A stretch of 64,000 nucleotides of DNA from Bixzunavirus cane17 (IMGVR_UViG_2974759174_000001); one strand, 5' to 3'. Shown: positions 470 to 38,761, numbered from the stretch's first letter. Program-made: numbers and translations. The notes: a model not told the origin generated them from the letters alone.

Positions 470-2335
470 ATGAGTGTCAGGCCCACAGAAGAACTACAGC
501 CCCAGGATGTGCTCCACGAGCCGGTCCAGGGCGCCTTCGAAACCTCGCATTCGTCCTCACATCATCAGCAGATCGCCCTGGACGGGTTGATCTATCTGAG
601 CGAGGTGGGCTCGACCCTGCACGGGGTGAGCACCGATGCGACCAGCGACGATATCGACGAGATGGGCATCGCCATCGAGCCGCCCCGCTGCGTGATCGGC
701 TTCGAGCGCTTCGACCTCTACGAGTACCGGACCAAGCCGGTCAGCGTGCGCTCACAAGCAGGCGATATCGACCGGACCATCTACAGCCTGCGCAAGTACG
801 CCAAGCTGCTGGCCGACGGCAATCCGACCGTGCTCATGCCGATGTTCGCCCCGGCAGACAAGCTGCGCTATGTCCATCCGCTGGGCCAGGTCCTGCGTGA
901 GAACGTGGGGCACTTCCTGAGCAAGCAGACCGGTTGGCGCTTCCTGGGCTACCTCAATCGTCAGCGCTCTCGCTACCTGGACCCCGAGCGCGCCGACTCC
1001 ACCCACGGCGCCCGACCCGAGCTGATCGAGGCCTACGGCTGGGATTGCTACTTGGACGACACCGAGTTCCTCACCCGCCGGGGGTGGATGCTGGCTGATC
1101 AGGTGCAGGACGGCGAGGAGATCGCCACCATCAATCAGGTCACCGGGCGCATGGAGTTTCAGCACTTCACCGAGCGGGTGGACAAGCCCTACACCGGCCC
1201 CATGCTGGTGGGCAGCACCCAGTACAGCCAGTGGGTGGTGACGCCCAATCACCGCATGTGGGTGCAGAAGATGTCTCGCGGCGCGAACGGCAGGAATCCA
1301 CGTGCGTACAGCGTTGAGACCGCAGGGCTGCAGCACTTCCGGCGTGCCGACGAGGTGACCACCTTGGACTGGTACCAGCGGGTGGTTGCCGAGCCTGGCC
1401 AGGTCGAGTTTCCGGTCAGTGATGCGTATCTGGCGCTGGTGGGCGCGTACGTTTCCGAGGGGTACGTGTGCAAGCGTCGTCAGGACGGCACCGCCTCGGT
1501 GTTGCGTTTCGATCAGAAAGACGGTGGCAGGCTTCATGGGACCATGGCGCTCGTCGGCACCGAGTACGCCCTGCGTGCGTACCGCTACCCCGATCGCAGG
1601 CCGGTGACGACCTGGACCCTGGCCGACCGTGATGTCGCACAAGACCTCGACAAGTCCTGTGGTGTAGGTAGCGTCAATAAGCGGCTGCCATCGTGGGTGT
1701 TCGACTTGTCTGGCCGTCAGGCCGACGTGCTGCTGCAGCACCTACTCAACGGCGATGGCACGCTCTCTCCGCGTGGTTGGGTGTACTACACCCAGTCTCC
1801 TGGTTTGGCTGGTGACGTGCAGGCCTTGTCGATCCTGGCGGGACGACGGTCGATCATGCGTGGACCCTACGACCCGGCAGCCATGTACCAGATCTCGGTG
1901 CAGGAGCGAGGAGTCACGCACACCTCATTCCGTGGTCGAGATGTCGCCACCGAGCAGGTGGAGAATCGACGCATCGTGTGCTTCACCGTGCCCAACGAGA
2001 CGCTGGTGACGCGCAGGAACGGCAAGGTGGCCATGCACGGCAACACCAAGACCGGCTATCACGCGCTGCGCCTGGCCATCCAGGGCGCCGAGCTGATGAA
2101 GCATCGCACCATCACGCTGCCGATGGAGCCCGAGCGCCGAGAGTTCCTGCTCAACGTGCGCAATGGGCAGTTCACCAAGGACCAGGTGATCACGTGGCTG
2201 GAGAGCACCTTCGTCCCGCTGCTGGAGCACGAGATTGAGCAGTCCACGCTGCCCGAGCAGCCGGAGTGGCGCTACATCAACCATCTGCTGGTGCACCTGC
2301 ATCAGGAGTACTGGACCGACCACGGGTGGGTCTGA
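470..2335 (+). CDS. Pol-beta superfamily nucleotidyltransferase (RlaP/YcgL-like) interrupted by an intein; 621-aa precursor with an extein of about 288 aa
   Basis: N-extein motif LSEVGSTLHGVSTDATSDDID (GS...G.....SD.D NTase signature); intein starts CYLDDTEF, has two LAGLIDADG motifs (LALVGAYVSEGYV, LQHLLNGDGTLS), ends VAMHGN followed by T. Confidence 0.75.
   Translation: MSVRPTEELQPQDVLHEPVQGAFETSHSSSHHQQIALDGLIYLSEVGSTLHGVSTDATSDDIDEMGIAIEPPRCVIGFERFDLYEYRTKPVSVRSQAGDIDRTIYSLRKYAKLLADGNPTVLMPMFAPADKLRYVHPLGQVLRENVGHFLSKQTGWRFLGYLNRQRSRYLDPERADSTHGARPELIEAYGWDCYLDDTEFLTRRGWMLADQVQDGEEIATINQVTGRMEFQHFTERVDKPYTGPMLVGSTQYSQWVVTPNHRMWVQKMSRGANGRNPRAYSVETAGLQHFRRADEVTTLDWYQRVVAEPGQVEFPVSDAYLALVGAYVSEGYVCKRRQDGTASVLRFDQKDGGRLHGTMALVGTEYALRAYRYPDRRPVTTWTLADRDVAQDLDKSCGVGSVNKRLPSWVFDLSGRQADVLLQHLLNGDGTLSPRGWVYYTQSPGLAGDVQALSILAGRRSIMRGPYDPAAMYQISVQERGVTHTSFRGRDVATEQVENRRIVCFTVPNETLVTRRNGKVAMHGNTKTGYHALRLAIQGAELMKHRTITLPMEPERREFLLNVRNGQFTKDQVITWLESTFVPLLEHEIEQSTLPEQPEWRYINHLLVHLHQEYWTDHGWV
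1046..2044 (+). mobile_element. intein (333 aa) with LAGLIDADG homing-endonuclease domain inside the nucleotidyltransferase gene
   Basis: Cys1 at TGC 1046-1048; block B TPNHRMWV; C-terminal HGN then Thr+1; two LAGLIDADG-like motifs. Confidence 0.7.
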
Positions 2336-2344
2336 TGAAAGGAC

Positions 2345-2530
2345 ATGGAAATGGGTCTGTTCTGGATGGCTTCCGGCGTCGGCTTGGCGTTCTTCTTGGT
2401 GCTCTTGGGCCAAGGCGTTCAGTCCTGGCTGCGGTCAAGAGCCGCGCTGGCCAAGGCGCAGGCACTCAGGGAGCTGCGCGAGGCGGGGTATCCGGTGCCC
2501 GACGGAACGCAGTTCAACTTCCCCCTCTGA
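2345..2530 (+). CDS. small membrane protein (61 aa)
   Basis: AAAGGA upstream; TM segment LFWMASGVGLAFFLVLLGQGV. Confidence 0.45.
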   Translation: MEMGLFWMASGVGLAFFLVLLGQGVQSWLRSRAALAKAQALRELREAGYPVPDGTQFNFPL

Positions 2531-2624
2531 CCACCCGTGACGGCTGGACCGGCCCTGGTCCAGTACTGCATGAACCTGCGCCTGGCCGTGGCCCAGTCGC
2601 CTGCGAGGAAGGACTGACGCCAAC

Positions 2625-2834
2625 ATGAACCCGTTCGAGGTCTATGTCGCCATCGGCGCAATCATCGGCATCATCACCTGGACCGCCATACTCGTGCACG
2701 TGGCCCGTGAGGACGGCTTCGTCGAGACCATGCTCTTGGGCGTGATGCTCAACACGGTGGTCTCGGGGATGGTCGCCTTTGCGTGGCCGCTGTTCGCCTT
2801 CGGTGCCCTGATCTACTTGGGGGCGAACCGGTGA
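2625..2834 (+). CDS. small membrane protein (69 aa, 2 TM)
   Basis: two hydrophobic helices; AGGAAGGA upstream. Confidence 0.5.
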   Translation: MNPFEVYVAIGAIIGIITWTAILVHVAREDGFVETMLLGVMLNTVVSGMVAFAWPLFAFGALIYLGANR

Positions 2835-2926
2835 GCCCGTTCGACACCCTGTGCGTGGCGGTGCTGGTCTTCGGCGTGCTGGTGCAGACCATGCACGCGC
2901 TGGGGAGATGGATGATGAAGCGATGA
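2831..2926 (+). CDS. possible 31-aa membrane micropeptide (VSPFDTLCVAVLVFGVLVQTMHALGRWMMKR)
   Basis: GTGA overlap with upstream stop and ATGA overlap with downstream start; too short for the ORF track. Confidence 0.25.
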   Translation: MSPFDTLCVAVLVFGVLVQTMHALGRWMMKR

Positions 2927-3222
2927 CCGACACCCTGCTGGCGCCGAACCTGGCCGACCTCGTCGACATGAAGTCCCAGCCTGCTTGCGAGTGCAAGAGC
3001 AGTCTCGCCGACGAGGACGAGTGGGAAGAGTGCCCGCACGCGGCCACCTGGTGTGCTGTCAGCAGGTGCTGTGCGCTGACCCTGCTGATATGTGACGACC
3101 ATCGACTCTGGTATCTGGACTACGTCGCGAAGATGTCGGTGCACCAGTCGTGGGTATTCATTTGCGGGCGGTGCCGGGCCGCGATGCAGGGCAATCCGTT
3201 CGCTAGCCTGGAGCGCCTGTGA
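2923..3222 (+). CDS. Cys-rich small protein (99 aa), possible zinc binder
   Basis: 9 Cys including CECK, CPH, CC, CGRC; start chosen at ATG 2923 by ATGA coupling, alternative GTG 2851. Confidence 0.5.
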   Translation: MTDTLLAPNLADLVDMKSQPACECKSSLADEDEWEECPHAATWCAVSRCCALTLLICDDHRLWYLDYVAKMSVHQSWVFICGRCRAAMQGNPFASLERL

Positions 3223-3425
3223 CCGCCGCGATCGTTGTCACCTATCTGGTGGGCATTGTGGCCATGGCCGCGATCGTCCTGGCCACCGGGATACTCGACG
3301 AGCCGGTCTATGCCGACATGAGCGAGCTCAGGAAGCTCTATGCCCTGACCTGCATAGTGCTGGGTTGGCCGTTGATCATCATGGCCGCGCTGGCCCTGAC
3401 GCTGCTCTACTTGCTCAAACGCTGA
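3219..3425 (+). CDS. membrane protein (68 aa, 2 TM)
   Basis: GTGA overlap; hydrophobic helices. Confidence 0.5.
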   Translation: MTAAIVVTYLVGIVAMAAIVLATGILDEPVYADMSELRKLYALTCIVLGWPLIIMAALALTLLYLLKR

Positions 3426-3440
3426 AAACATCGAGCGCTC

Positions 3441-3513
3441 GGGAGTGAAATCCCCTGTAGATGCGCTATAGTAAGGTAGTCTGAACACGCACACACTCAC
3501 CAAGGGAGACCAT
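3441..3513 (+). promoter_or_regulatory. conserved intergenic promoter-leader element (variant box GGGAGTGAAATCCCC, -10 TATAGT, CA-rich leader, AAGGGAG RBS)
   Basis: member of the repeated element family; see findings. Confidence 0.5.
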
Positions 3514-4206
3514 ATGCCCAGACTCATCACGGACAAGCGCGGCGCCAAGCTGGCCCGCGAGATCCTCACCCAGATCGAGGCCGAAGTGGAGGCCCGACTG
3601 GTACGCGAGTCGTCTACTTCTACTGAAGGCCCGGTGTGGAACCAGAGCGTGTGGGTCATGGTCGACCTCGACCTGCTTCCTCCGCGTTCATCGGTCGAGC
3701 TGATCGATCCCGCCACGATCACCGCCCGTCGATCGCTTGACTATGTTCCGAACGGGCACGCCGTTCGGTCAGGCTTGGCGGCGGCGATCGACAGCGGGGT
3801 CGGTCCCTCCTGCGGCACGGCCCTGTGCTTTGCCGGGCATGCCTCGATCATGGCAGGCGACCGGTACCTCATCCCGGTGAGACCGGAGGTCGCCCAGAAG
3901 CTCAGGACCGGAAGGGTCCGGCGCAGTCTGCGGCACTTCGTGAACAACTATCGGCACAAGCTGCCTCCCTCCCTCTCCGACATCCTCGGTTCGACAGTGA
4001 TCACGCCGGACAACGAGGTGACGACGGTCGAGATCCGCGCGCGGGAACTGCTGGGCCTCACTGCAGGAGAGGCAGAAACGCTTTTCGCTGGCGGAAACAC
4101 CCTCTCCGACCTGCGCAGGTACGTGGAGATGATGGAGCGGGGCCAGAACCTGAGCACCGGCAAGCCGAAGCGAGGCGTGCGGCGGCGCACCTCGGGGGAG
4201 GACTGA
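3514..4206 (+). CDS. hypothetical protein (230 aa)
   Basis: long ORF with RBS AAGGGAG; high GC3. Confidence 0.7.
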   Translation: MPRLITDKRGAKLAREILTQIEAEVEARLVRESSTSTEGPVWNQSVWVMVDLDLLPPRSSVELIDPATITARRSLDYVPNGHAVRSGLAAAIDSGVGPSCGTALCFAGHASIMAGDRYLIPVRPEVAQKLRTGRVRRSLRHFVNNYRHKLPPSLSDILGSTVITPDNEVTTVEIRARELLGLTAGEAETLFAGGNTLSDLRRYVEMMERGQNLSTGKPKRGVRRRTSGED

Positions 4207-4373
4207 TGAACTGGCCAGCGGTCCTCGGTGTCCTGGCGGGAGCAGCGGGCATTGTCGCCTTCGTCTTGTTCATTATCAATCCGTTCCTGGAGGAACCCAA
4301 GAAGCGGCGGATGATGATCGTCGCGTTCGGCATCGGCGTGGTCTGTGCGGCGCTGGCCGCAGGCCTGTCATGA
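4206..4373 (+). CDS. small membrane protein (55 aa)
   Basis: TGATG overlap; MNWPAVLGVLAGAAGIVAFVLFII TM helix. Confidence 0.45.
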   Translation: MNWPAVLGVLAGAAGIVAFVLFIINPFLEEPKKRRMMIVAFGIGVVCAALAAGLS

Positions 4374-4389
4374 GGGGAGAGAGGGACGC

Positions 4390-5318: not shown

Positions 5319-5320
5319 CG

Positions 5321-5425
5321 ATGTCGCAGCCGAGCGAGACCCGCATCCCGCAGGTCCTCGGCTACGCCTGGGGCGAGGTGGACTCGGTGCTGCGCGGCTT
5401 CATCGACACCCTCAAGGGCGACTGA
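5321..5425 (+). CDS. possible small protein (34 aa)
   Basis: ATG right after upstream stop; weak RBS. Confidence 0.3.
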   Translation: MSQPSETRIPQVLGYAWGEVDSVLRGFIDTLKGD

Positions 5426-5460
5426 ATCCGACACGCCGATCGAGGAACAAGCCCGGGCGA

Positions 5461-27663: not shown

Positions 27664-27689
27664 CGTAGTACATCCATGGAGGATGAAGC

Positions 27690-27735
27690 AGCCGCGTAGT
27701 GCGGCGACCGGATTCGAAACCCGGGTAGCGCGTCA
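27690..27735 (+). other. tRNA-like remnant (T-arm-like CCGGATTCGAAACCCGG) without a foldable acceptor stem
   Basis: T-loop-like sequence seen; no complementary acceptor found on either strand. Confidence 0.25.
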
Positions 27736-27856
27736 TGGCGCTTGGGGAGCGTGCCCTCCTTCCTCCGCTTGGGAGAAGAAACCGTCAAGGCTGACGGGAC
27801 CGCTTGGAAAGCGGCTCGTGGGTAACACCATGAGGATCGTGCCCTCTCTTCTCCGC

Positions 27857-27942
27857 GCCTCGGTGACGTAATGGAAGCCGTGCTGCACTCAGACTGCAGT
27901 GTCCGAAAGGGCGTGAGGGTTCGACTCCCTCCCGAGGTACCA
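27857..27942 (+). tRNA. tRNA-Leu (anticodon CAG) with long variable arm and encoded CCA
   Basis: acceptor GCCTCGG/CCGAGGT (G-U at 1-72), anticodon stem CTGCA/TGCAG perfect, loop CTCAGAC, T-arm GAGGG-TTCGACT-CCCTC, 3' ACCA. Confidence 0.7.
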
Positions 27943-27943
27943 A

Positions 27944-28016
27944 GCCCCTGTATCCCAACGGCAGAGGAAGCGGTCTGAGAGGCCGTTCAGTGAGGGTTCG
28001 AATCCCTCTGGGGGCA
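27944..28016 (+). tRNA. tRNA, type I (short variable arm); the anticodon loop reads CTGAGAG (GAG), so the isotype is ambiguous
   Basis: acceptor GCCCCTG/TGGGGGC, T-arm GAGGG-TTCGAAT-CCCTC; a Leu anticodon without a long arm is anomalous. Confidence 0.5.
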
Positions 28017-28017
28017 C

Positions 28018-28091
28018 GCCGCAGTATGCAAACCGGAAAAGCAGCCGTACTCAAAATGCGGTGCGTGCGGGTTCGATCCCCGCCTGCGGTA
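28018..28091 (+). tRNA. tRNA, type I; the anticodon loop reads CTCAAAA (CAA), so the isotype is ambiguous
   Basis: acceptor GCCGCAG/CTGCGGT, T-arm GCGGG-TTCGATC-CCCGC. Confidence 0.5.
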
Positions 28092-28458
28092 CTTTGGCTC
28101 GTTGACGTTGCTGCGCCTGGGTGTTGGCGGCAGTGCAGGCCTTGCACCGGCACTTGATCTTGGGGTTGCGATACCTCCCCACAGTTCCATGCTGGTGATA
28201 TCCCATGTCGTTCGCCGTCTTCTCCTGATGACAGGGCTCGCAAAGCACCTGACACTTGGTCAGCTCAGCTTCTCGCCGTGCGGCGCTCCAAGACCAGATC
28301 TTGTGGTCGACTTTCTGAGTCGGGTCGATGTGATCAAGTCGGAGATCTTCTGTGGCACCGCACTCCACACAGGACTTCCCTGCGAAGTACTCGGTTCGCC
28401 GTCGCGCCACCCATTCACGTTGATACTGGCGCTGGGCTTCGGGGTCCTTGTAGGGCAC
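28051..28458 (-). CDS. HNH homing endonuclease (135 aa); its 3' end overlaps the last tRNA on the opposite strand
   Basis: CVECG ... LDHIDP ... KCQVLCEPCH HNH motif; GTG start with GGGATAGGA RBS. Confidence 0.8.
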   Translation of the reverse strand: MPYKDPEAQRQYQREWVARRRTEYFAGKSCVECGATEDLRLDHIDPTQKVDHKIWSWSAARREAELTKCQVLCEPCHQEKTANDMGYHQHGTVGRYRNPKIKCRCKACTAANTQAQQRQRAKVPQAGIEPARTAF

Positions 28459-28504
28459 GGGTTCATCCTATCCCTGAGTACACATGGCGCAGTGCCGGTC
28501 TACA

Positions 28505-28572: not shown

Positions 28573-31500
28573 ATGAGTGACTTTGGTCTGTTCGAGGCGG
28601 CAGCTGACGCCGAACAGGAGCCGAGCCGTAAGCACCGGATCGCCGCGCGCAAAATGGCCGCAGCGCTGGTCGACGTGCACGCCAAGTTCGGGTCGTTCAT
28701 GACCAACGCTGACGGCGTCGACAACTTCGAGGACCGGTTCTCGATGAGTCGTCGTGACATCGCCAAGGTCATGGTGGCCCACGGTGTGGGCGCCTATCCG
28801 GCGGTGATGCGTGAGGTCCACGGCAGCCTCAAGAGCGCTTGGTACGAGAAGCACGCTGAGTTCGACGAAGACGCGGGCACCACCGAGGAGTCCAACTTCG
28901 AGGACGGCGATGACTCCGGCTCGGACAAGCCCGGCGGCAAGGAGGCCCGGCGCCGCAAGGTCGCTGAGGACCGCGACGCCCCGGTACAGGCCATCCAGGA
29001 GACCTACGCCCCGTCGGGCGGCAACTTGGTCCCCGAGGGTGACTTCGACGGCTACCTGGACCGAGTTGACCAGGGTGGTCCTGAGAACGTCAGTGGCCAC
29101 GACTTCACCCCCGGCGGCGACTCGGGTGTGGACTCCCACCACCACGAGGCCCGCCAGCTGGTGGCCGACCTCTACACCGACTGGGCCGAGAGCAATGGCC
29201 TCCGTGTCGCGTCGATGAACACCCTCGACGTCTACGCGGCCAACGGCCTGCACGACGACGACTACTACCTGCTGGCCGCGATGATCCGCAAGGCCGAGTG
29301 CGAGTGCGAGGACGACGACAAGGAAGAGTCCGACTCGGACGATTCCGACTCGGACAGCGATAGTGACTCGGACAGCGACTCGGACGACGACGTCGACGAG
29401 GACGGCCCCGAGGGTCCGGACACCGACAGCGACGGCCCGCCTGCGGGTGCTGCCGAGAAGGGCGGCGAGATCTCCGACGAGGGCGGATCCGAGGACGACT
29501 CCAATCCGTTCGACGGCGAGGATGAGGCCCCCGAAGAGGATGGCGAGGACTTCCCGGCAGACCCCAATGGCCTGGAGGACGCCGGTCCTCAGGACGCGCC
29601 CGTCGACGACGGCAGCGCTGGTGGCCAGGAGTTCACCGTCCCCGAGCAGGCCCCTGAGCTGCCACAGGACGAGATGAGCCAGCTGCAGGACTCCGGTCCA
29701 CAGAGCGTGCCGCCGGAGGTTATCGACGACATCCTGGGCCTGCCTCCGGGCACCCTGGAGCAGCTCATCGCCGAGGAACTCGGTCAGGCTGGCGGCGGCA
29801 CTCCGCCGCAAGGGTCGCCTCCGCAGTTGGCCCGCCGACGTCGTCAGGCGGCAGAGGACCCCACCGGGGCCGCTGAGTCTGCCGACCAGGGTGACGCAGC
29901 GGCGGCAGCAGCCCCGGCAGCCGCAGGCGCGGGCAGTGCTGGAGCCATCCCGCCGCCTGGATCGGCCTCGGTCGCTCCTCCGCCCGCACCGGCGCCGCTG
30001 GAGAACCAGCCCGCCGAGGACGCACTGCTGGACACCGCCGTCCAGTCGGTCACCCAGATGATCGACCGCGAGACCCAGGAGTACCAGCAGATCATCGACC
30101 CGCTGACGCAGGCCCTGCAGGCGATCGAGTTCGCCCAGCAGGTCGAGCAGGCCGAGAATCCGCTCGACGTCACCCCGCCCGAGGGCACCGTCGATGCCAG
30201 CCCGGCAGCAGCCCCTGGTGGCGCCAACAGCCTGCAGCAGCAGGCCAGCCACGCGCGGCGCATGATGGCGCGCACGGCAGGCATCGCCAAGCAGTTCGGC
30301 CTGACCAAGCGGGCCGAGGCCATGATGATCCACGCGATGAGCCGCAAGCACTACGAGCACGTGGCCGAGGCCATCCGTATGGTGCCGCCGGAGATGCGCG
30401 GTCCGGTCGCCGAGCACATTGGCGCGATGTTCCGTGAGGACAACCCCCGGTTCAACCACGACCTGTGGATGCAGCACGTCGCCGGAAACAGGCGCGCCAA
30501 GAGCACCGACGACTTCCACACCTACAACGACCGTGGCGGCGAGCCGGGTGATTACGAGCGCAACAACCGGGGCTACAGCGAGATCGGCAACGGCATGGTG
30601 CAGGACTGGGAGACCGGCGAGGTCTACCCGCACCCCGGACGCACTGCGGGCCGCTGGAACACCCCGCCGGGCGGGACGCCGTGGCTGGATGCCACCCCAG
30701 CGAGCCGCCGCCCTTTCGTCGTTAGCCGTACCGCCGGGGAGACCTGGAAGAACACGCCCACCATGGACGCGTTCGAGTTCCCCGGCCACGGCGAGACGCC
30801 GGAGATCTCCGACAACATGAAGATCAACGACCTGCCGAAGACGACCAAGAACGCCGCCCTCGACGTCGAGGCCAAGGGCGTGCTCGACATGTTCGACGAC
30901 TTCACCAAGAAGCGCACCGACAAGGGCCTGAACCTGGGCCCTGCGGCCAACGTCGAGACGTTCAAGCAGGAGAAGGGCGACAAGGTCGGTCCCAAGGCTC
31001 TCGACAAACTGGAGAAGACCATCGAGGCCAACCGCAAGGCGGCGTCGTTCTTCACCCGCAAGGTGCCGGGTTGGACCTGGAACGACCACCTGGCCGGGTA
31101 TGTCACCGACGCCCGTCGGCAGTTCATCTGCTCGTGCGGCGCCGGTATTGAGACGCCGAGCTATACCATGTGCCACTGCGGCAAGATCTGGAACAGCTAC
31201 GCGATCGGCGACACCCAGCACCTGGCCAGCGACTCCGCCGAGCAGTTCATCACCCGCGAGATCCCGGTCCGCAAGGACGTGATCCTGGCCAACCGTCAGA
31301 TGGCCGATGGGCCGCTTACCGGCGACGAGAGGCTGCCTCAGGACGACCCTGAGAGTCTGGCCTATCAGGACCGCCAGGGGATCTCGAACGCCCCTGGGTG
31401 GGGCACCTGGCCGCAGCATCAGATGAAGATGATCGTCGACAGCCCGGAGTTCCGTGTCCCGGAGCACTACTTGCCGGGTCGTGACCGAATGAGCCACAAG

Positions 31501-31995: not shown

Positions 31996-32002
31996 GGGAC
32001 GA

Positions 32003-32473
32003 ATGACAGCTGTCGAGGATCGCTTTTGGTCCAAGATCGATGCATCTGATGGATGTTGGCTCTGGACGGGGTCTCTCACGCACAACGGATACGGTCGATT
32101 CAAGGTTGACGGGAAGATGGTCCGAGCACATAGGTTCGCCTATCAGATGATGATCGGCGACATCCCTGAAGGCATGGAGCTGGACCATCGGCACACCTGT
32201 CCCAAGAGGTGCGTCAATCCAGAACACCTGCGACTTGTAACGCACAAACGCAATCAGGAGAACCGGTCAGGAGCCATGAGAAACAGCTCCACCGGCATTC
32301 AAGGGGTGTATTGGGACAAGAGGAACTCCTGCTGGCATGCGCGGGTGGGACATCACGGCAAGCGCGTCCACGTGGGGCGTTTCTTGACCTCGGAAGAGGC
32401 TGAGGCTGCCGTTGTTGCCAAGAGGCTGGAACTCTTCACTCATAACGACGCAGACCGGTTGGTGACCGTATGA
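32003..32473 (+). CDS. HNH endonuclease with C-terminal AP2 DNA-binding domain (156 aa)
   Basis: DGCWLWTGSLTHNGYGRF ... ELDHRHTCPKRCVNPEHLRLVTHKRNQ (HNH_3); GIQGVYWDKRNSCWHARVGHHGKRVHVGRF (AP2). Confidence 0.8.
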   Translation: MTAVEDRFWSKIDASDGCWLWTGSLTHNGYGRFKVDGKMVRAHRFAYQMMIGDIPEGMELDHRHTCPKRCVNPEHLRLVTHKRNQENRSGAMRNSSTGIQGVYWDKRNSCWHARVGHHGKRVHVGRFLTSEEAEAAVVAKRLELFTHNDADRLVTV

Positions 32474-32838: not shown

Positions 32839-32841
32839 TAC

Positions 32842-35800
32842 GTGAGTAGCCCCATCTACAAGGCCGGGTCCAACTGGTCGGCAGAGGTCAATCGCCTGCG
32901 CAAGGCGGGCGTGAACATGCCGAACAGCCCCACCATGGCCCGCGCCCAGGCTGCTGCGCTCCAGAACACCGTGGACAACAAGCCGCTGATCGACTACTTC
33001 CAGGGGCGCCGCCGCGCCGCCGAGGCCAACCGCCAGCGCCTGGCCAGCTACCGCAAGCAGGGCAACTTCGGCTCCAACATGCAGATCGCCATGCCCAAGA
33101 TCCGCCAGCCGCTGGGCACGCTGGCCGACAAGGGCATTCCGTTCAATGTCGAGGACGAAGAAGAGCTTCGGGTCATCAGACACTGGTGCAGACTCTTCTA
33201 TGCCACCCACGACCTGGTCCCGCTGCTCATCGACATCTACTCGAAGTTTCCGGTCGTCGGCATGGAGTTCGACTCCAAGGACCCGCTGATCAAGACGTTC
33301 TACGAGGACCTGTTCTTCGGCGAAGACCTCAACTACCTGGAGTTCCTGCCCGACCAGTTCGCGCGCGAGTACTTCACCGTCGGTGAGGTCACCTCGCTGG
33401 CGCACTTCAACGAGTCACTTGGCGTCTGGAGCTCCGAGGAGATCCTTAACCCCGACATGCTGCGTGTCAGCCGGTCGATGTTCGTCCAGCGCGAGCGTGT
33501 GCAGCTCATGGTCAAGGACCTCGTCGACCACCTGCGTCAGGGGCCGACCACGGCGGGCGGCAACATGTCGACCGTCGAGGAGACGCCGTCGGAGCGTGAG
33601 CAGCGGATGCGCGAGTTCCAGGACCTGCAGCGCCGCTACCCCGAGATCATCCAGGCCGCGATGCAGAACGACGGCCTCGACATCTCCGAGGCCCTGATCA
33701 GCCGCGTGGTCAACCGGCCCACCGCCTGGGCCACCCGGGGCGCCCCGCACCTGCTGCGCAGCTTCCGGACCCTGATGGCCGAAGAGTCGCTCAACGCCGC
33801 CCAGGACGCGGTGGCCGATCGCCTCTACAGCCCGCTGGTGCTGGCCACCCTGGGCATCGAGGACATGGGCGACGGCGAGCCGTGGATTCCCGACCAGGGC
33901 GAGCTCGACGAGGTCCGCGACGACATGCAGTCGCTGCTGGCCGCTGACTTCCGCCTGATGGTGCACAACTTCGGCCTCAAGGTCGAGAACGTGTTCGGGC
34001 GCGAGAGCGTGCCCAACCTCGACGCCGACTACGACCGCATCGAGCGCAAGCTGCTGCAGGCCTGGGGCATCGGTGAGGCGCTGATCTCCGGCGGCACCGG
34101 TGGCGCCTACGCCTCCAGCGCGCTCAACCGTGAGTTCGTCACCCAGATCATGACAGGCTTCCAGAACGCTCTCAAGCGCCACATCCGGCGCCGGTGCGAG
34201 GTGGTCGCCGAGGCGCAGGGTCACTATGACTACGACCTCAAGGGCGGGGTCCGCGTCCCGATCTACCGCGAGATCGTCGAGTACGACGAGGAGACCGGCC
34301 AGGAGTACATCCGCAAGGTCCCCAAGCTGCTCATCCCGGAGATCAAGTTCTCCTGCGTGGTTCCTGGCACCCAGGTTCTCACCCCGACCGGCCAGCGCAG
34401 CGTCGAGGACATCCAGCCTGGCGACGAGGTCATCGCCTGGGACGGCACCGGCTACGTCATCGACACCGCCCTACACACCGGCATCGAGCATCGCGACCGT
34501 CTGGTCGAGGTGACCACTGCGACCGGACGCACGGTGCGCTGCACCGCCGATCACCCGTTCTGGACTGACCGGGGATGGGTGCTGGCTGAGAACCTCACTA
34601 CCGACAGTCTGATTCGCACGTCTGCCGGTCAGTTGGCGGCGCACATCGAGTCTGATGACGACCTGGACATGCTGCGGTTTCTGGGTCTGCTGGTTGGTGA
34701 CGGCAACTACTCGACCACCCATGTGTCGCTTTCGGTCAGCGACCCCGAGGTGGATGCGTTCGTCTGCGAGCAGGCCGAGCGGATGGGCCTGACCGCCCGA
34801 CGGAAGGCCGATGCTCGCACCGACAAGGTGTGGTACCGGACGTTCGTCCGGCCCGCGCCGTGGAAGGGCAACGCGCTCCGCAACCCGCTGCACACGCTGC
34901 TGCGCGAGCAGGGCATGTGGGGCAAGAATGCCCACACCAAGCGGGTGCCGCCGATGGTGTGGGCGGCGGGGGCCAAGGGGCGCGCGGCGTTCCTGTCCGG
35001 CTACTTCGACGCGGACGGCTACGCCTGCCGCACCTCCGGCCTCAAGATCACGTCGGTCAACCGCCTCCTGCTGGACGACTGCCAGGTGCTGTTTGAGTCG
35101 CTGGGCATCCGCGCCCAGGTGCGCTCTTACGCCTACCGCTACGACGGCCAGAAGAACCCCGGCGTGCAGTCGGTCAACCACTTGACGGTCAGCAACAACC
35201 ACTACTTCCAGATGCTGCGGGACACCCTGTCGCCGGTAATCGGCAGCAAAACCGCCGCACTAGACGACATGGCCCGCCCGTCCACGCGGGGCCGGAAGGC
35301 TCCGCGCCCGGTGGAGTGGGATCAGGTCACGTCGGTGACCCACCTGGCTGAGGGCGGCGACATCGTCACCCTGGGCATCACCAGCACCCATACTCATGTC
35401 ACGGCGGGCCTGGTGTCGCACAACACGCTCAACCTGCGTGACGAGGCCCAAGAGCGTGCCTTCATCGCCCAGCTCAAGGGCATGGGCGTGCCGGTCAGCG
35501 ACAAGACGCTGGCGGTCAACATCGACATGAAGTTCGACCAGGAGCTGGAACGTCAGGCCGACGAGACCGTGCAGAAGCTCATGGCCACCGCACAGGCCAT
35601 GAAGAAGGTCCAGGACCTGTGCGACGCGCAGAACCTGCCCTACCCGCCGGAGCTGGCCCAGCACCTGCAGTCCACTCTGGCGCTGCGCCAGGGCAAGACC
35701 CAGACCGAGCTGGGCGAGGCCCAGGCGGTCGCGGGCGGGGCTCAGGCCGAACTGCAGACCAAGCAGATCGAGATGCAGGAAATGATGATGGACCAGCAGA

Positions 35801-36537
35801 TGGCCGGTGGGGTGATGCCCGGCCAACCGATGCTGCCCCCGGGCGCTGCCGGTCCGCCTCCGGGTGCTCCCGGCGATCCTGCTGCCGGTGGCCCGCCCCC
35901 GCCCGCCGGTGGTCCGATGGGCGGTCCTCCGGTGGCCCCGGCGCCTGGCGTCGCCGGGCCGGGCAACGCCCCGGCGAGCTTCTACGCGGCCAGCCTGCGC
36001 ACGGCGGACGCCATCAACGGCCCGACCGGCACCGGCCCGTCGGCAGACGGCCCGCTGGGTCCGACCGGCCCCGAGTTGCCGCCCGGTGTGCCCGAGCCGA
36101 CTGAGGTCCCGCGTAACCGTCAGCGTCCGGCGGAGTCCGACGACAACCATCCGGGTGGCAACCTCAAGCCCGCCAGCCGGAACCGCAAGCGCACCCGCAA
36201 AGGCCAGGAGGAGCCCCGTCGGCTCACCCGCTGGGAGAAGGGTCCCTCCAGCTACGGCAAGAGCAAGATGGCTTCCGAGGAGCATGTGGTTGCTCAGATC
36301 CGTCGGCGCGAGGTCGTTGCCAACTGGGACTGGTCACAGTTTGGTAACGCTCCCCGCGTTGCTGACTTGGTAGCTGACCCGCACTTTTACCAGGCCACCA
36401 ACATGCAGGCGTATCAGGGACAGTTGCAGGCTGACTGGCCCGAGATCCAGGCCGGTGGCGCCGAGGAGAGCCGCCGGATTCTGGACGATATGCTCAGCCA
36501 GTTTCAAGAGATCTTTGGTGTCGAACCGCAGTGGTAA
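32842..36537 (+). CDS. putative portal (head-tail connector) protein interrupted by an intein; 1231-aa precursor, 874-aa extein; no Walker A motif, so not a terminase
   Basis: intein starts CVVPGTQVLT after EIKFS and ends VSHN followed by T; Pro/Gly-rich C-terminus; the portal call is an inference from size and position. Confidence 0.6.
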   Translation: MSSPIYKAGSNWSAEVNRLRKAGVNMPNSPTMARAQAAALQNTVDNKPLIDYFQGRRRAAEANRQRLASYRKQGNFGSNMQIAMPKIRQPLGTLADKGIPFNVEDEEELRVIRHWCRLFYATHDLVPLLIDIYSKFPVVGMEFDSKDPLIKTFYEDLFFGEDLNYLEFLPDQFAREYFTVGEVTSLAHFNESLGVWSSEEILNPDMLRVSRSMFVQRERVQLMVKDLVDHLRQGPTTAGGNMSTVEETPSEREQRMREFQDLQRRYPEIIQAAMQNDGLDISEALISRVVNRPTAWATRGAPHLLRSFRTLMAEESLNAAQDAVADRLYSPLVLATLGIEDMGDGEPWIPDQGELDEVRDDMQSLLAADFRLMVHNFGLKVENVFGRESVPNLDADYDRIERKLLQAWGIGEALISGGTGGAYASSALNREFVTQIMTGFQNALKRHIRRRCEVVAEAQGHYDYDLKGGVRVPIYREIVEYDEETGQEYIRKVPKLLIPEIKFSCVVPGTQVLTPTGQRSVEDIQPGDEVIAWDGTGYVIDTALHTGIEHRDRLVEVTTATGRTVRCTADHPFWTDRGWVLAENLTTDSLIRTSAGQLAAHIESDDDLDMLRFLGLLVGDGNYSTTHVSLSVSDPEVDAFVCEQAERMGLTARRKADARTDKVWYRTFVRPAPWKGNALRNPLHTLLREQGMWGKNAHTKRVPPMVWAAGAKGRAAFLSGYFDADGYACRTSGLKITSVNRLLLDDCQVLFESLGIRAQVRSYAYRYDGQKNPGVQSVNHLTVSNNHYFQMLRDTLSPVIGSKTAALDDMARPSTRGRKAPRPVEWDQVTSVTHLAEGGDIVTLGITSTHTHVTAGLVSHNTLNLRDEAQERAFIAQLKGMGVPVSDKTLAVNIDMKFDQELERQADETVQKLMATAQAMKKVQDLCDAQNLPYPPELAQHLQSTLALRQGKTQTELGEAQAVAGGAQAELQTKQIEMQEMMMDQQMAGGVMPGQPMLPPGAAGPPPGAPGDPAAGGPPPPAGGPMGGPPVAPAPGVAGPGNAPASFYAASLRTADAINGPTGTGPSADGPLGPTGPELPPGVPEPTEVPRNRQRPAESDDNHPGGNLKPASRNRKRTRKGQEEPRRLTRWEKGPSSYGKSKMASEEHVVAQIRRREVVANWDWSQFGNAPRVADLVADPHFYQATNMQAYQGQLQADWPEIQAGGAEESRRILDDMLSQFQEIFGVEPQW
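34354..35424 (+). mobile_element. intein (357 aa) with LAGLIDADG homing endonuclease domain inside the putative portal gene
   Basis: Cys1 TGC 34354; block B TADHPFWT; LAGLIDADG motifs LRFLGLLVGDGNYS and AAFLSGYFDADGYA; terminal HN 35419-35424, +1 Thr. Confidence 0.75.
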
Positions 36538-36595
36538 TTGTCTTCCTCGTCAATGAAACTTTAGGGTGACCTGGCCAGGGGTGGAGTGCTATTCT

Positions 36596-36605
36596 CAACC
36601 TGTAG
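36596..36605 (+). promoter_or_regulatory. copy 2 of motif tCAACCTGTAG in the low-GC intergenic island
   Basis: identical 10-mer. Confidence 0.35.
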
Positions 36606-36643
36606 TCGAATCAAAGTGATCGACGGTTCGAGGGGTCAGTTCA

Positions 36644-37003
36644 TTGCACGCAGACGTAGACGTCGTGGCCGAATTTGAGATCGGTCTCGAATTGCCAGAC
36701 GGCACACAGATATTTCCACCCGAAACCTTCCGAGGCAGGTCGCTAGCCACTCCTGAAGACCGAAAGGTCATTCATGACTCTTTGCTGGTGGCCATGGATA
36801 ACATGGGTTATCCCCGGTCTCGAGCCCTGGAGGACTACCACTGGGTCCGGCGCGAGACCGAGGTTGTAACCATCAGGCGCTCTATAGCGATCAACCGGTT
36901 GGCGATCGACGACGGGTTCGTCATCTCCAGTCCCGAGAGCGCCGATGCGATCGTTGAAAACGAGACTTCTGGACCGCCGGGTCCGGACGGAGATAGTGGC
37001 TGA
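36644..37003 (+). CDS. hypothetical protein (119 aa) with atypical codon usage (low GC3); possible recently acquired moron
   Basis: TTG start with GAGGGG RBS; many A/T-ending codons, unlike neighbours. Confidence 0.45.
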   Translation: MHADVDVVAEFEIGLELPDGTQIFPPETFRGRSLATPEDRKVIHDSLLVAMDNMGYPRSRALEDYHWVRRETEVVTIRRSIAINRLAIDDGFVISSPESADAIVENETSGPPGPDGDSG

Positions 37004-37073
37004 GACCCTCCTAACCACTCGCTGAGCGGCTCGAATAGATGTCCACTTCTCCATCTATTTGAGAGGACGACCT

Positions 37074-37229
37074 CATGCTCGTTCTTGGCATCATCCTGCT
37101 GCTCCTGGGCTACCTGCTCGGAGTTCACGTCCTGTTCATCATCGGCGCCATCCTTGCGGCTGTCGGCGCCCTGCTGCTGGTTCTCGGCGGTCTGGGACGC
37201 CCGGTCGGCGGTCGCCGGTACTGGTACTA
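37074..37229 (+). CDS. small membrane protein (51 aa, two TM helices)
   Basis: RBS GAGAGGA; MLVLGIILLLLGYLLGVHVLFIIGAILAAVGALLLVLGGL; the track's alternative frame is Cys/Ser-rich off-frame. Confidence 0.45.
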
Positions 37230-37294
37230 ACCACCGGCCCGGGAATAGTTCCTGGGCCCCTTCCACCCACACCAAGTGAAGAAACGGGAGCAAA

Positions 37295-38761
37295 GTGCTC
37301 GATATTCAGTTCACCGATGAGATTGTCGTCGAGGTGCTCGACAGCAACTTCTCCGACAGCCGGGTCTGCGTGGCAGCCCGGACGTCGACAGCAGGTGCTG
37401 GCGCCGATGACAGCGAGCGCTACGGGCTGATCAACGCCCTGATGCGTGACCGTCACGGCACGCCGTTCGAGCACATGAACGCGACCTTCCGGGTGACCGC
37501 GCCGATCTTCGTCTGGCGCGAGCACCACCGGCACAGGTCGGGCTTCTGCGTTGCAGGGTCCACCCGCGTGCCTGTTGGTTCCGGCAAGGACGGCAGGACC
37601 AAGACCATCGAGGACATCTACCGTGACTGGCACCTGGGGGTCCCCGATTCGTTGGGGAGGAACAGGAAGCTGCCAAGCTGTCGCAACCTTGCTACCCGAA
37701 CGGTCAACCTCGACACCGGATTGGTGGAAGCCGCCCGCATGGTCGACGTCTTCCAGTCAGGCGTCAAGCCGATGATCTGGCTGCGGTGGGAGAACGGCAA
37801 GGGGCTCCGGTGTACTCGGGAGCATCGAGTGTGGACTCCCGAGGGTTGGGTCAAAGCGGGCGACCTGCAGGTCGGTGACTTGGTCGGTCGCATCGGTCTG
37901 GTCGCCTACGGCGAGGCTCCCCGCTTCTACTCCAAGAAGCTGCGCGAGGGTATCGGCATCTGGACTTCGCAGCAGCGCGATCTGATCCAGGAGGTGGACA
38001 CCTGTCATCGCTGCGAGGGGGTGTTCTCCAAGAGTGATCTGGAACTCGATCATGTCATTCCGGTCTGTGAAGACCTCAAGCTGGCGCTGGACAGGGATAA
38101 TCTCGCTCCGATCTGTGCTCCCTGCCATGACGTCAAGTCTCGTGAGGAGACGTCACGCAATTACGAGAACCGCCGCCAGCGTGCCAATGGTGTGCGATTC
38201 GAGAAGGTGACGTCCATCGAGGACGGCGGCGAGGAGATGACTTACGACCTGGAGATGCCGGGTCCGTATCACAACTTCATTGCCAATGGTCTGGTTGTTC
38301 ACAACAGCTACAACGAGGAGTCCGGGCGCTACAAGCAGCTCGATCCGGTCTTCTACGTCCCCGGAGAGACCCGACCGATCGCCAAGGTCGAGGGCACCCG
38401 AAACATGGACTACGTCCTGGAGAAGGGCACTGCCGACCAGCACGCCCTGATCGCCAACGCGATGTGGGCCACCTGTTCTGGTGCCTATCGCCAGTACGAG
38501 GCCATGCTCGACGCGGGCATCGTGCGCGAGGTCGCACGCATGGTCCTCCCGGTGAACATCATGAGCACCTGCATCGTGACCTGCAACGCGCGGTCGCTGA
38601 TGCACTTCCTGTCGTTGCGGCAGCGCCACGACGACGCCAAGTTCCCCAGCAAGCCCCAGTACGAGATCAACTTGGTCGCCAATGGGTACGAGCGGCTGCT
38701 GGCCGAAGAAGCACCGTTGGTGCACCGCAGTTATGTCGAAAACGGGCGAGTCGCCCCGTAG
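37295..38761 (+). CDS. thyX: flavin-dependent thymidylate synthase ThyX interrupted by an HNH-type intein (488-aa precursor, 235-aa extein)
   Basis: ThyX signature REHHRHRSGF then intein then SYNEESGRY (RHR-x7-S motif split by the intein). Confidence 0.85.
   Translation: MLDIQFTDEIVVEVLDSNFSDSRVCVAARTSTAGAGADDSERYGLINALMRDRHGTPFEHMNATFRVTAPIFVWREHHRHRSGFCVAGSTRVPVGSGKDGRTKTIEDIYRDWHLGVPDSLGRNRKLPSCRNLATRTVNLDTGLVEAARMVDVFQSGVKPMIWLRWENGKGLRCTREHRVWTPEGWVKAGDLQVGDLVGRIGLVAYGEAPRFYSKKLREGIGIWTSQQRDLIQEVDTCHRCEGVFSKSDLELDHVIPVCEDLKLALDRDNLAPICAPCHDVKSREETSRNYENRRQRANGVRFEKVTSIEDGGEEMTYDLEMPGPYHNFIANGLVVHNSYNEESGRYKQLDPVFYVPGETRPIAKVEGTRNMDYVLEKGTADQHALIANAMWATCSGAYRQYEAMLDAGIVREVARMVLPVNIMSTCIVTCNARSLMHFLSLRQRHDDAKFPSKPQYEINLVANGYERLLAEEAPLVHRSYVENGRVAP
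37547..38305 (+). mobile_element. mini-intein with HNH endonuclease domain (253 aa) inserted in the ThyX active-site motif
   Basis: Cys1 TGC 37547; HNH CHRCEGVFSKSDLELDHVIPV ... CAPCH; ends LVVHN then Ser+1. Confidence 0.8.

What the first reader, a model, noticed from the sequence alone, without database searches (positions are those of the whole stretch)
1046..38305. Three inteins of three different architectures in one 64-kb segment
Three host proteins carry inteins. The nucleotidyltransferase (1046-2044) and the putative portal (34354-35424) carry full LAGLIDADG inteins, and ThyX (37547-38305) carries an HNH-type intein. All three show canonical Cys1, block B T-x-x-H and a terminal (H/G)N followed by Ser or Thr. 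Two free-standing HNH endonucleases (28051-28458 on the minus strand, 32003-32473) also lie nearby. This is an unusually high density of selfish splicing and homing elements for a phage.
Basis: partly seen in the sequence, partly recalled or inferred. Interest (0 to 1): 0.65.

Follow-up and report, generated by a model that had tools for sequence, protein, structure and literature searches.

The report
Three known inteins in phage Cane17

Summary
The window is bases 1-64000 of Mycobacterium phage Cane17 (cluster C1, Bixzunavirus). Alignment with intein-free alleles in sister phages gives clean in-frame insertions at 1046-2044 (gp3 nucleotidyltransferase), 34354-35424 (gp79 portal) and 37547-38305 (gp82 ThyX). 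All three are class 1 inteins: Cys1, block B TxxH, terminal HGN/SHN/VHN, and +1 Thr/Thr/Ser. Two carry LAGLIDADG endonucleases and one carries an HNH endonuclease, so there are two architectures from three unrelated lineages, not three architectures. Both free-standing HNH genes are real. One of them (28051-28458, minus strand) is missing from the GenBank annotation.

None of this is new. Pope 2011 and Kelley 2016 described the C1 nucleotidyltransferase, portal and ThyX inteins. A 2025 preprint lists these three Cane17 inteins and names Cane17 the most intein-rich actinobacteriophage, with seven inteins.

- Each of the three sites holds two deeply diverged intein lineages (69-80% nucleotide identity) in ~97-99% identical host genes.
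- dN/dS is 0.07-0.29 across both the splicing and the nuclease domains.
- The ThyX-HNH intein also occurs in phage StAugustine and in many Streptomyces chromosomal thyX genes.

The parts
470..2335 (+). gp3, RlaP-family nucleotidyltransferase precursor (621 aa; spliced product 288 aa)
   Evidence: Pfam RlaP 2.3e-49, split into two stretches. The intein-free Bxz1 gp3 matches phrog_388 nucleotidyltransferase at 2e-95. GenBank annotation.
1046..2044 (+). NT intein, 333 aa. Class 1, with a two-motif LAGLIDADG endonuclease (motifs at nt 1430-1468 and 1727-1765). Block B TPNH lies within nt 1235-1261. Ends HGN, with +1 Thr.
   Evidence: Exact 999-bp in-frame insertion relative to Bxz1. Profile hits to PI-PkoII (1.8e-17) and an NrdHF intein (4e-8). 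AF2 pLDDT 95.8, and Foldseek matches to endonuclease-bearing inteins. Listed as class 1 / LAGLIDADG, intein cluster 1, in the preprint's Supplemental Table 1.
28051..28458 (-). Free-standing HNH endonuclease (135 aa, GTG start). Not annotated in GenBank. Its 3' end overlaps tRNA-Leu(caa) 28018-28092 on the opposite strand.
   Evidence: phrog_4234 at 1.3e-51, full length. Pfam HNH 2e-4. 59.6% amino-acid identity to annotated HNH endonucleases at ~94 kb in most C1 phages. No CDS is annotated at this position in Cane17. It lies in a variable tRNA cassette, 27672-28500.
32003..32473 (+). gp77, free-standing HNH_3 + AP2 homing-type endonuclease
   Evidence: Pfam HNH_3 3.7e-11 and AP2 4.4e-6. phrog_3593 at 2.1e-70. 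Clean ~472-bp intergenic insertion relative to Bxz1, Bigswole, ET08 and Rabinovish. Only 4 records hold a copy at >=99% identity; the next best is 51.6%.
32842..36537 (+). gp79, portal protein precursor (1231 aa; spliced product 874 aa)
   Evidence: The intein-free Breeniome gp90 matches phrog_2833 portal at E=0, plus two more distant portal PHROGs. GenBank annotation.
34354..35424 (+). Portal intein, 357 aa. Class 1, with a LAGLIDADG endonuclease (motifs at nt 34672-34710 and 34984-35025). Block B TADH lies within nt 34534-34563. Ends SHN, with +1 Thr.
   Evidence: Exact 1071-bp insertion. LAGLIDADG_3 1.3e-12, Hom_end, Hint_2 and TIGR01445. PDB sequence hits to PI-SceI, PI-PfuI and PI-PkoII. 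Preprint intein cluster 54.
37295..38761 (+). gp82, ThyX (flavin-dependent thymidylate synthase) precursor (488 aa; spliced product 235 aa)
   Evidence: Pfam Thy1 4.2e-37 and TIGR02170 thyX 5.4e-43, both split in two.
37547..38305 (+). ThyX intein, 253 aa. [quoted passage not shown] Inserted three residues after RHR, inside the ThyX RHR...S motif. Ends VHN, with +1 Ser.
   Evidence: Exact 759-bp insertion. Intein_splicing 9.8e-15, HNH 1.2e-8, and TIGR01445 and TIGR01443 above their cut-offs. PDB hits to DnaB and RecA mini-inteins and to HNH endonucleases. The preprint's supplementary file 2 carries 'Cane17_679:37547-38305', and Supplemental Table 1 lists it as class 1 / HNH.

Best explanation
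Three independent class 1 inteins sit in three Cane17 genes: the nucleotidyltransferase, the portal and ThyX.

How they work. Each gene is translated as one precursor. The intein's Hint domain then excises itself: an N-S acyl shift at Cys1, trans-esterification to the +1 Thr or Ser, cyclisation of the terminal Asn, and an O-N shift. This leaves a seamless host protein. Each intein carries a homing endonuclease nested in its splicing domain. It is LAGLIDADG in gp3 and gp79, and HNH in gp82.

How they spread. During co-infection the endonuclease cuts the intein-free allele of a related phage at the insertion site. Repair then copies the intein, together with a short tract of flanking extein, into that allele. 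This produces the patchy presence and absence seen across C1 phages. The two free-standing HNH genes are ordinary intergenic homing-type endonuclease genes.

What is shown and what is inferred. Shown here: the identity of the elements, their boundaries, their motifs, their fold, the allele polymorphism and purifying selection. Inferred: splicing and DNA cleavage, which were not assayed for these three.
For: - Precise in-frame presence/absence at all three sites among phages whose exteins are ~96-99% identical.
- The full set of class 1 residues is present, and the +1 nucleophile is already there in the empty alleles.
- HMM, profile and fold matches to inteins and to LAGLIDADG or HNH nucleases.
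- Nuclease catalytic motifs are intact: E/D at the ends of both LAGLIDADG helices, and CxxC...DH...N...CxxCH in the HNH domain.
- Purifying selection acts on both the splicing and the nuclease parts. Between the two lineages at each site, dN/dS is 0.07-0.29 with dS ~0.75-1.4.
- Changes next to the junctions look like co-conversion. In the portal there are three substitutions within 16 bp upstream. In ThyX the -1 codon is TGG (Trp) in empty alleles and TTC/TTT (Phe) in occupied ones, and a Ser codon is AGT or TCC four codons downstream.
- The inteins assort independently even though the portal and ThyX sites are only 2.1 kb apart. ET08 has the portal intein only, Roots515 has the ThyX intein only, and Colt mixes lineages.
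- Published catalogues list these very inteins.
- A penultimate Gly, as in gp3's HGN, is known in mycobacteriophage class 1 inteins. In the tested Bethlehem RDF intein it still allows complete splicing.
- Inference: Cane17 forms plaques and the portal is essential, so the portal intein must splice.
Against: - No splicing or cleavage assay exists for the NT, portal or ThyX inteins. Kelley 2016 tested only the terminase and RDF inteins.
- The gp3 intein is missed by every curated intein HMM when searched alone.
- The portal intein's Pfam Intein_splicing score (32.5) is below the gathering cut-off of 35.8.
- The flanking substitutions could reflect ordinary recombination rather than endonuclease-driven co-conversion.
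Confidence: 0.93

Rival explanations
1. The inserts are inteins whose endonucleases no longer home. They would be splicing-competent but immobile passengers, inherited vertically and moved only by general recombination among C1 phages.
For: - No cleavage data exist for these three.
- The Cane17-type portal intein is found in only 2 phages and the Cane17-type ThyX intein in only 3, so neither has swept the population.
- The 2025 survey does record decaying endonucleases in other phage inteins.
Against: - The nuclease domains show dN/dS of 0.07-0.21 at dS ~1.0-1.4, as low as or lower than the splicing domains.
- Catalytic motifs are intact.
- Intein lineages differ by 20-31% in nucleotide sequence inside exteins that are ~97-99% identical. 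This needs repeated site-specific import.
- Neighbouring sites assort independently.
Confidence: 0.1
2. The inteins have been co-opted as post-translational switches. Splicing would be conditional (on redox state, temperature or DNA damage) and would time the supply of active ThyX, portal or nucleotidyltransferase during infection.
For: - The insertions sit in functional centres. The ThyX intein is inside the RHR...S motif (motif from general knowledge of ThyX).
- Kelley 2016 showed that the penultimate residue tunes precursor accumulation in a phage intein, and proposed splicing-based regulation.
- gp3 has the non-canonical HGN ending.
Against: - Most C1 phages do without each of these inteins and have near-identical exteins. 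No regulatory role is therefore needed.
- Insertion in conserved motifs is equally expected from homing-site conservation.
- There are no data on conditional splicing for these inteins.
Confidence: 0.05
3. The inserts are not inteins. They would be in-frame fusions of endonuclease genes, or annotation or assembly artefacts. RefSeq, for example, labels gp82 and some gp3 homologues simply 'HNH endonuclease'.
For: - RefSeq and some GenBank records call gp82 or gp3 homologues 'HNH endonuclease'.
- The gp3 insert has no direct intein HMM hit.
Against: - Hint-domain blocks A, B, F and G flank the nuclease in all three.
- The host domains are split exactly and are restored by removing the insert.
- The same insertions recur in independently sequenced phages.
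- gp3 contains no HNH motif, so that label is a mis-annotation.
Confidence: 0.01

Closest known systems
Cluster C1 mycobacteriophage inteins 'NT', 'PORT' and 'TdS-a' (Pope et al. 2011, PMC3029335; Kelley et al. 2016, PMC5050341; bioRxiv 10.1101/2025.01.02.630785, Supplemental Table 1)
   Same: These are the same elements. Cane17 gp3 (class 1, LAGLIDADG, intein cluster 1), gp79 (class 1, LAGLIDADG, cluster 54) and gp82 (class 1, HNH, cluster 12) are listed by name, and the ThyX intein has identical coordinates. Pope 2011 already noted that the ET08-type and Cali-type gp3 inteins share 67% amino-acid identity. I measured 67.5% for Cane17 against Colt.
   Different: Nothing essential differs. The published 70% clustering puts the Cane17/Blubba portal intein together with the ET08/Gizmo/Colt one, and the Cane17/Colt/Blubba ThyX intein together with the Gizmo-type one. 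I find these to be distinct sublineages, at 79.6% and 77.7% nucleotide identity.
Streptomyces chromosomal ThyX inteins at site TdS-a, groups 1 and 2 (Kelley et al. 2016, Fig. 4B)
   Same: Same insertion point (RHRxGW|C...HN|SYNEESGRY), same class 1 + HNH layout, and 50-58% amino-acid identity for the 253-aa type. The example inspected lies beside dapA and the RNase J gene, which is a chromosomal context.
   Different: The host is a bacterial chromosome rather than a phage. The -1 residue is Trp, as in intein-free phage alleles, whereas the occupied C1 phage alleles have Phe. The more common 303-aa type is only ~40% identical.
PI-SceI, PI-PfuI, PI-PkoII and TliVMA (structurally solved LAGLIDADG inteins)
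   Same: A Hint splicing domain interrupted by a single-chain, two-motif LAGLIDADG nuclease. These are the top fold matches for the gp3 intein model (E 1e-15 to 3e-11) and sequence matches for the portal intein.
   Different: Sequence identity is only 8-12%. The phage inteins are smaller (333 and 357 aa against 430-540 aa). gp3 ends in HGN rather than HN preceded by His.
Bethlehem gp51 RDF intein (class 1, penultimate Gly; Kelley et al. 2016)
   Same: A mycobacteriophage class 1 LAGLIDADG intein with a Gly before the terminal Asn, as in gp3. It splices completely in a reporter assay.
   Different: Different host protein, different phage cluster (A1) and an unrelated sequence. gp3 itself was never assayed.

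Membership tests
Intein (Hint-domain protein-splicing element), class 1 | In-frame insertion in a conserved host protein whose removal restores the uninterrupted homologue | tested here: met
   Alignments with Bxz1 gp3 and Breeniome gp90 and gp93 give exact 333-, 357- and 253-aa insertions. DNA-level gaps of 999, 1071 and 759 bp agree.
Intein (Hint-domain protein-splicing element), class 1 | Block A nucleophile at position 1 (Cys/Ser), block B TxxH, terminal Asn, and a +1 Cys/Ser/Thr | tested here: met
   C1 in all three. TPNH at 66-69, TADH at 64-67 and TREH at 90-93. Endings HGN|T, SHN|T and VHN|S. The penultimate His is replaced by Gly in gp3, a variant already described for phage class 1 inteins.
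Intein (Hint-domain protein-splicing element), class 1 | Statistically significant match to Hint or intein profiles, or to the Hint fold | tested here: met
   ThyX: PF14890 9.8e-15, with TIGR01445 and TIGR01443 above their cut-offs. Portal: TIGR01445 26.2 against a cut-off of 24.5, but PF14890 32.5 is below its cut-off of 35.8. NT: no hit alone, but a family profile hits an NrdHF intein at 4e-8, and the AF2 model matches solved inteins at E down to 1e-15.
Intein (Hint-domain protein-splicing element), class 1 | Actual protein splicing (precursor converted to ligated exteins plus free intein) | not testable with these tools
   No assay for these three was found in the literature searched. Splicing is inferred from the viability of a phage whose portal carries the insert.
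Class 3 inteins (WCT triplet, no position-1 nucleophile) | No nucleophile at position 1, and an internal block F Cys that starts splicing | tested here: not met
   All three start with Cys. The preprint also scores them class 1, whereas Cane17's helicase and Cas4 inteins, which lie outside the window, are class 3.
LAGLIDADG homing endonuclease (single-chain, two-motif) | Two LAGLIDADG helices, each ending in an acidic catalytic residue, in an alpha-beta-beta-alpha-beta-beta-alpha pseudo-dimer fold | tested here: met
   Portal: LRFLGLLVGDGNY and AAFLSGYFDADGYA; PF14528 at 1.3e-12. NT: LALVGAYVSEGYV and VLLQHLLNGDGTL; 16 of the 26 aligned sequences hit PF14528; PI-PkoII at 1.8e-17; I-DmoI fold matches at ~1e-5; model helices 126-138 and 223-237 are each followed by strands.
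HNH (beta-beta-alpha-Me) endonuclease | HNH motif with its catalytic His, a conserved Asn, and zinc-binding CxxC pairs | tested here: met
   ThyX intein: PF01844 at 1.2e-8, above its cut-off. C153, C156, D168, H169, N185, C190, C193 and H194 are invariant across the phage and Streptomyces homologues. The free-standing 28051-28458(-) ORF matches phrog_4234 at 1.3e-51. gp77 matches PF13392 at 3.7e-11 and phrog_3593 at 2.1e-70.
Homing (mobile) genetic element | Site-specific cleavage of the empty allele and copying of the element into it | not testable with these tools
   Only indirect evidence is available: patchy distribution, intein/extein divergence mismatch, flank changes, and purifying selection on the nuclease.

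The most novel reading that the evidence does not exclude
At each of the three sites, C1 phages carry two intein lineages whose synonymous divergence is near saturation (dS ~0.9-1.2), inside host genes that are ~97-99% identical. The most novel reading still open is that occupied sites are not a dead end. Under this reading, divergent inteins repeatedly displace one another at the same site, by intein-to-intein replacement through flanking homology or through nucleases with shifted specificity. Phage ThyX would then serve as a two-way bridge for the HNH intein between mycobacteriophages of different clusters (C1 and StAugustine) and Streptomyces chromosomes. This would extend the classical gain, fixation, decay and loss homing cycle. 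Much of the raw pattern is already published: the two gp3 lineages (Pope 2011) and the phage-Streptomyces TdS link (Kelley 2016). Only the portal and ThyX sublineages, the StAugustine copy and the replacement interpretation would be new.
Probability: 0.2. Interest if true: 0.4.

Novelty: already known. Interest (0 to 1): 0.2.

Why it matters
The result is useful mainly as a check on the scan. Reading raw sequence alone, the first stage found three inteins with base-exact boundaries, plus an HNH gene that the GenBank annotation lacks. Biologically, Cane17 is the published extreme case of intein load in actinobacteriophages. That makes it a convenient natural system for studying homing, intein turnover at a fixed site, and phage-host intein exchange through ThyX. 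Nothing here changes current understanding.

Tried and rejected
- More inteins in the window. Pfam scans of the ten other large ORFs found none. These included gp76, gp85 and gp86, each about 1140-1270 aa. The whole-window comparison with Bxz1 showed no other clean in-frame insertion in a large gene. The preprint's other four Cane17 inteins are in genes with numbers well above 110, outside the window: the helicase gp179, the Cas4 gp205, the terminase, and the 'integrin-like' protein.
- Direct HMM and PDB searches with the gp3 intein alone. Pfam and NCBIfam gave no intein family, and PDB gave only PI-PkoII at E=0.041. This was resolved with a homologue profile and a structure model.
- The three inteins as diverged copies of one another. 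Rejected: only weak local BLASTP matches.
- Horizontally acquired DNA detectable by base composition. Rejected: intein GC of 0.64, 0.67 and 0.61 against extein GC of 0.64, 0.67 and 0.64.
- The Streptomyces ThyX link as a new finding. Rejected: Kelley 2016 Fig. 4B already reports TdS-a groups 1 and 2 and their relation to the Gizmo and ZygoTaiga inteins.
- A phrase search of the preprint's supplement for 'Cane17 <gene number>' returned nothing because of tab separators, so I read the table parts instead.
- Not done: a wide homologue search for the portal intein, and a check on whether Bxz1 gp98 (the homologue of Cane17 gp89), labelled 'HNH endonuclease' in RefSeq, is one. Pfam shows no HNH domain in gp89.

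Full report
**Identity of the window.** A megablast of 32842-38761 against the phage collection returned Mycobacterium phage Cane17 (MH697579.1 / NC_054716.1) at 100% identity and in the same coordinates. The window is therefore bases 1-64000 of this 160,330-bp cluster C1 myovirus (genus Bixzunavirus). GenBank annotates 470-2335 as gp3 nucleotidyltransferase, 32842-36537 as gp79 portal, 37295-38761 as gp82 ThyX-like thymidylate synthase, and 32003-32473 as gp77 HNH endonuclease. Nothing is annotated between tRNA-Leu(caa) at 28018-28092 and gp76 at 28573.

**Check of the observation.** I aligned the three Cane17 proteins with intein-free alleles from sister phages: Bxz1 gp3, and Breeniome gp90 and gp93. 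Each alignment shows one clean in-frame insertion.
- gp3: residues 193-525 (nt 1046-2044), between ...YGWD and TK(T/A)GYH....
- gp79: residues 505-861 (nt 34354-35424), between ...KFS and TLNLRDE....
- gp82: residues 85-337 (nt 37547-38305), between ...RHRSG(W/F) and SYNEESGRY....

A blastn of the whole window against the first 70 kb of Bxz1 gave the same three gaps of about 999, 1071 and 759 bp. The claimed motifs are present. All three begin with Cys1. Block B is TPNH (66-69), TADH (64-67) and TREH (90-93). The endings are HGN|T, SHN|T and VHN|S.

**Are they inteins, and of what kind?**
- *ThyX insert.* It matches Pfam Intein_splicing (9.8e-15) and HNH (1.2e-8), and passes the NCBIfam intein N- and C-terminal models. 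The Thy1/thyX match is split in two. PDB sequence hits are DnaB and RecA mini-inteins and HNH endonucleases.
- *Portal insert.* It matches LAGLIDADG_3 (1.3e-12), Hom_end, Hint_2 and TIGR01445, and PI-SceI, PI-PfuI and PI-PkoII. Its Intein_splicing score (32.5) is below the gathering cut-off of 35.8.
- *gp3 insert.* It matched no curated intein model on its own, and only PI-PkoII at E=0.041. I collected 33 homologues from metagenomes, most of them inside RlaP nucleotidyltransferases, and aligned the query with 25 of them. 16 of these 26 sequences hit LAGLIDADG_3. The profile hits PI-PkoII at 1.8e-17 and an NrdHF intein at 4e-8. An AlphaFold2 model (pLDDT 95.8, pTM 0.93) has endonuclease-bearing inteins (TliVMA, PI-SceI, PI-PkoII, PI-PfuI) and then I-DmoI as its best PDB matches.

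Both LAGLIDADG inteins have two motifs with the acidic residue in place. These are LALVGAYVSEGYV and VLLQHLLNGDGTL in gp3, and LRFLGLLVGDGNY and AAFLSGYFDADGYA in gp79. The HNH residues C153, C156, D168, H169, N185, C190, C193 and H194 are invariant across phage and bacterial homologues.

All three are therefore class 1 inteins. Two carry LAGLIDADG nucleases and one carries an HNH nuclease. That makes two domain architectures, not three. The three inteins are nevertheless unrelated lineages.

**Host proteins and insertion sites.** The spliced portal matches portal PHROGs at E=0 and the spliced gp3 matches a nucleotidyltransferase PHROG at 2e-95. The ThyX intein sits three residues after RHR, inside the RHR-X8-S-x-R-Y ThyX signature (sequence; the motif is from general knowledge of ThyX). 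Other C1 phages such as Rahel carry a different portal intein at a second site, IRHW|C...KN|CRLFY, which Cane17 lacks.

**Free-standing endonucleases.**
- gp77 (HNH_3 + AP2; phrog_3593 at 2.1e-70) is a clean ~472-bp intergenic insertion relative to Bxz1, Bigswole, ET08 and Rabinovish. It occurs at >=99% identity in only four records.
- The minus-strand ORF at 28051-28458 is a full-length HNH endonuclease (phrog_4234 at 1.3e-51). It is 59.6% identical to the HNH annotated at ~94 kb in most C1 phages. It is not annotated in Cane17, Bigswole, or apparently Colt and Essence. Its last 42 nt overlap tRNA-Leu(caa).
- That ORF lies in a cassette (27672-28500) that replaces the ET08/Bxz1 tRNA-Leu trio with a diverged trio.

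**Evidence bearing on mechanism.** Presence and absence are patchy among ~200 C1 genomes. The inteins assort independently even though the portal and ThyX sites are only 2.1 kb apart: ET08 has the portal intein only, Roots515 has the ThyX intein only, and Breeniome has neither. Each site also holds two deeply diverged intein lineages inside nearly identical host genes:

| Site | Lineages compared | Intein nt identity | Extein nt identity |
|---|---|---|---|
| gp3 | Cane17 vs Colt | 69.3% | 99.2% |
| Portal | Cane17/Blubba vs Colt/Gizmo/ET08 | 79.5-79.7% | 99.2-99.4% |
| ThyX | Cane17/Colt/Blubba vs eight others | 77.7-77.9% | 96.5-96.8% |

Nei-Gojobori estimates between lineages give whole-intein dS of 0.9-1.2 and dN/dS of 0.10-0.23. 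The nuclease segments score 0.07-0.21. Both activities have therefore been under purifying selection. Junction-proximal differences look like co-conversion tracts. The portal has three substitutions within 16 bp upstream. In ThyX the -1 codon is Trp in empty alleles and Phe in occupied ones, and a Ser codon is AGT or TCC four codons downstream. Splicing and cleavage themselves are inferred and were not tested. The strongest indirect argument is that a plaque-forming phage cannot have a non-functional portal.

**What is already known.** Pope et al. 2011 described inteins in ET08 gp3 and gp79. They also noted that the Cali/LRRHood gp3 intein is only 67% identical to ET08's, which matches my 67.5%. 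Gizmo's 2013 GenBank record notes putative inteins in the portal and in ThyX. Kelley et al. 2016 catalogued C1 inteins in NT (23), PORT (6) and TdS (2), among others. They showed that the penultimate His is often replaced, for example by Gly, in phage class 1 inteins without blocking splicing. They also reported that the phage TdS inteins group with a rare 'group 1' of Streptomyces TdS-a inteins. A 2025 preprint surveying 784 actinobacteriophage inteins states that Cane17 has the most, seven. Its tables list gp3, gp79 and gp82 with the same class and nuclease calls that I reached, and give the ThyX intein as 37547-38305. The other four Cane17 inteins lie outside this window.

**Independent reproduction of the ThyX link.** The big protein database holds only five relatives of the ThyX intein. 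One is in a Streptomyces thyX next to dapA and the RNase J gene. A scan of species-representative genomes found 157 actinobacterial genomes encoding a relative. In 79 of the 80 retained loci the intein sits in thyX at RHRxGW|C...HN|SYNEESGRY. It occurs either as a 253-aa type (50-58% identity, about 19 species) or as a 303-aa type (about 40% identity). These are Kelley's groups 1 and 2. One item not in the published tables: the non-C1 phage StAugustine carries the same HNH intein at the same ThyX site, at 49% identity.

**Verdict.** However, every main element is already published for this very genome. Interest is low. The residual value lies in small additions: the sublineages at the portal and ThyX sites, the selection estimates, the StAugustine copy, and an unannotated HNH gene in a tRNA cassette.

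Noticed in passing
window 27672-28500 (including 28051-28458 on the minus strand and the tRNAs at 27857-28092): A full-length HNH endonuclease gene is missing from the GenBank annotation of Cane17 and Bigswole, and apparently of Colt and Essence. Its 3' end overlaps tRNA-Leu(caa) on the opposite strand. The surrounding ~830 bp replace the tRNA-Leu(cag/gag/caa) trio of ET08/Bxz1 with a diverged trio (about 65-70% matches). This looks like a homing-endonuclease-plus-tRNA cassette swap. Rabinovish has a 73%-identical HNH in the opposite orientation at the tRNA-Ser position.
   Followed up: partly
window 31999-32470 (gp77, 32003-32473): The HNH_3+AP2 endonuclease gene is a clean intergenic insertion between the gp76 and gp78 homologues. 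At >=99% identity it is found in only four phage records. The nearest other relative is 51.6% identical (YungJamal). Cane17 holds a second, weaker match elsewhere in its genome.
   Followed up: partly
window 50796-52309 (gp91, 50687-52300): A 537-aa GDSL-lipase/acylhydrolase gene is a ~1.5-kb insertion relative to Bxz1, between the homologues of Bxz1 gp99 and gp100 (head fibre). About 114 bp of flank appear duplicated in the blastn tiling.
   Followed up: no
L016 1063-2532 (Mycobacterium phage StAugustine PV251870, gp63): A 101-kb non-C1 mycobacteriophage has a ThyX with a homologous HNH intein at the same site (RHRIA|C...VVHN|SYNEESGRY; the intein is 49% identical to Cane17's). It does not appear in the thymidylate synthase list of the 2025 preprint.
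   Followed up: partly
L018-L097 (for example L017 9653-11149, L036, L062): 79 of 80 retained actinobacterial loci carry an intein in chromosomal thyX at the same site as Cane17 gp82. The genera are Streptomyces, Streptosporangium, Actinacidiphila and a Frankiales MAG. There is a 253-aa type (50-58% identity) and a commoner 303-aa type (about 40%). Many of these loci lie about 4 kb from a contig end. The two types match Kelley 2016's TdS-a groups 1 and 2.
   Followed up: partly
L006 301-3729 (phage Rahel gp89) compared with window 32842-36537: The C1 portal gene has a second, unrelated intein insertion site (IRHW|C...KN|CRLFY, near residue 115). It is occupied in Rahel and about 25 other phages and is empty in Cane17.
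   Followed up: no
window 44135-44740 (inside gp86, 43473-47195): A variable stretch inside the 1240-aa gp86. Bxz1 has about 444 extra bp and a diverged ~350-420-bp block here. There are no intein or Hint signatures, so this is ordinary mosaicism in a large structural-region gene.
   Followed up: no
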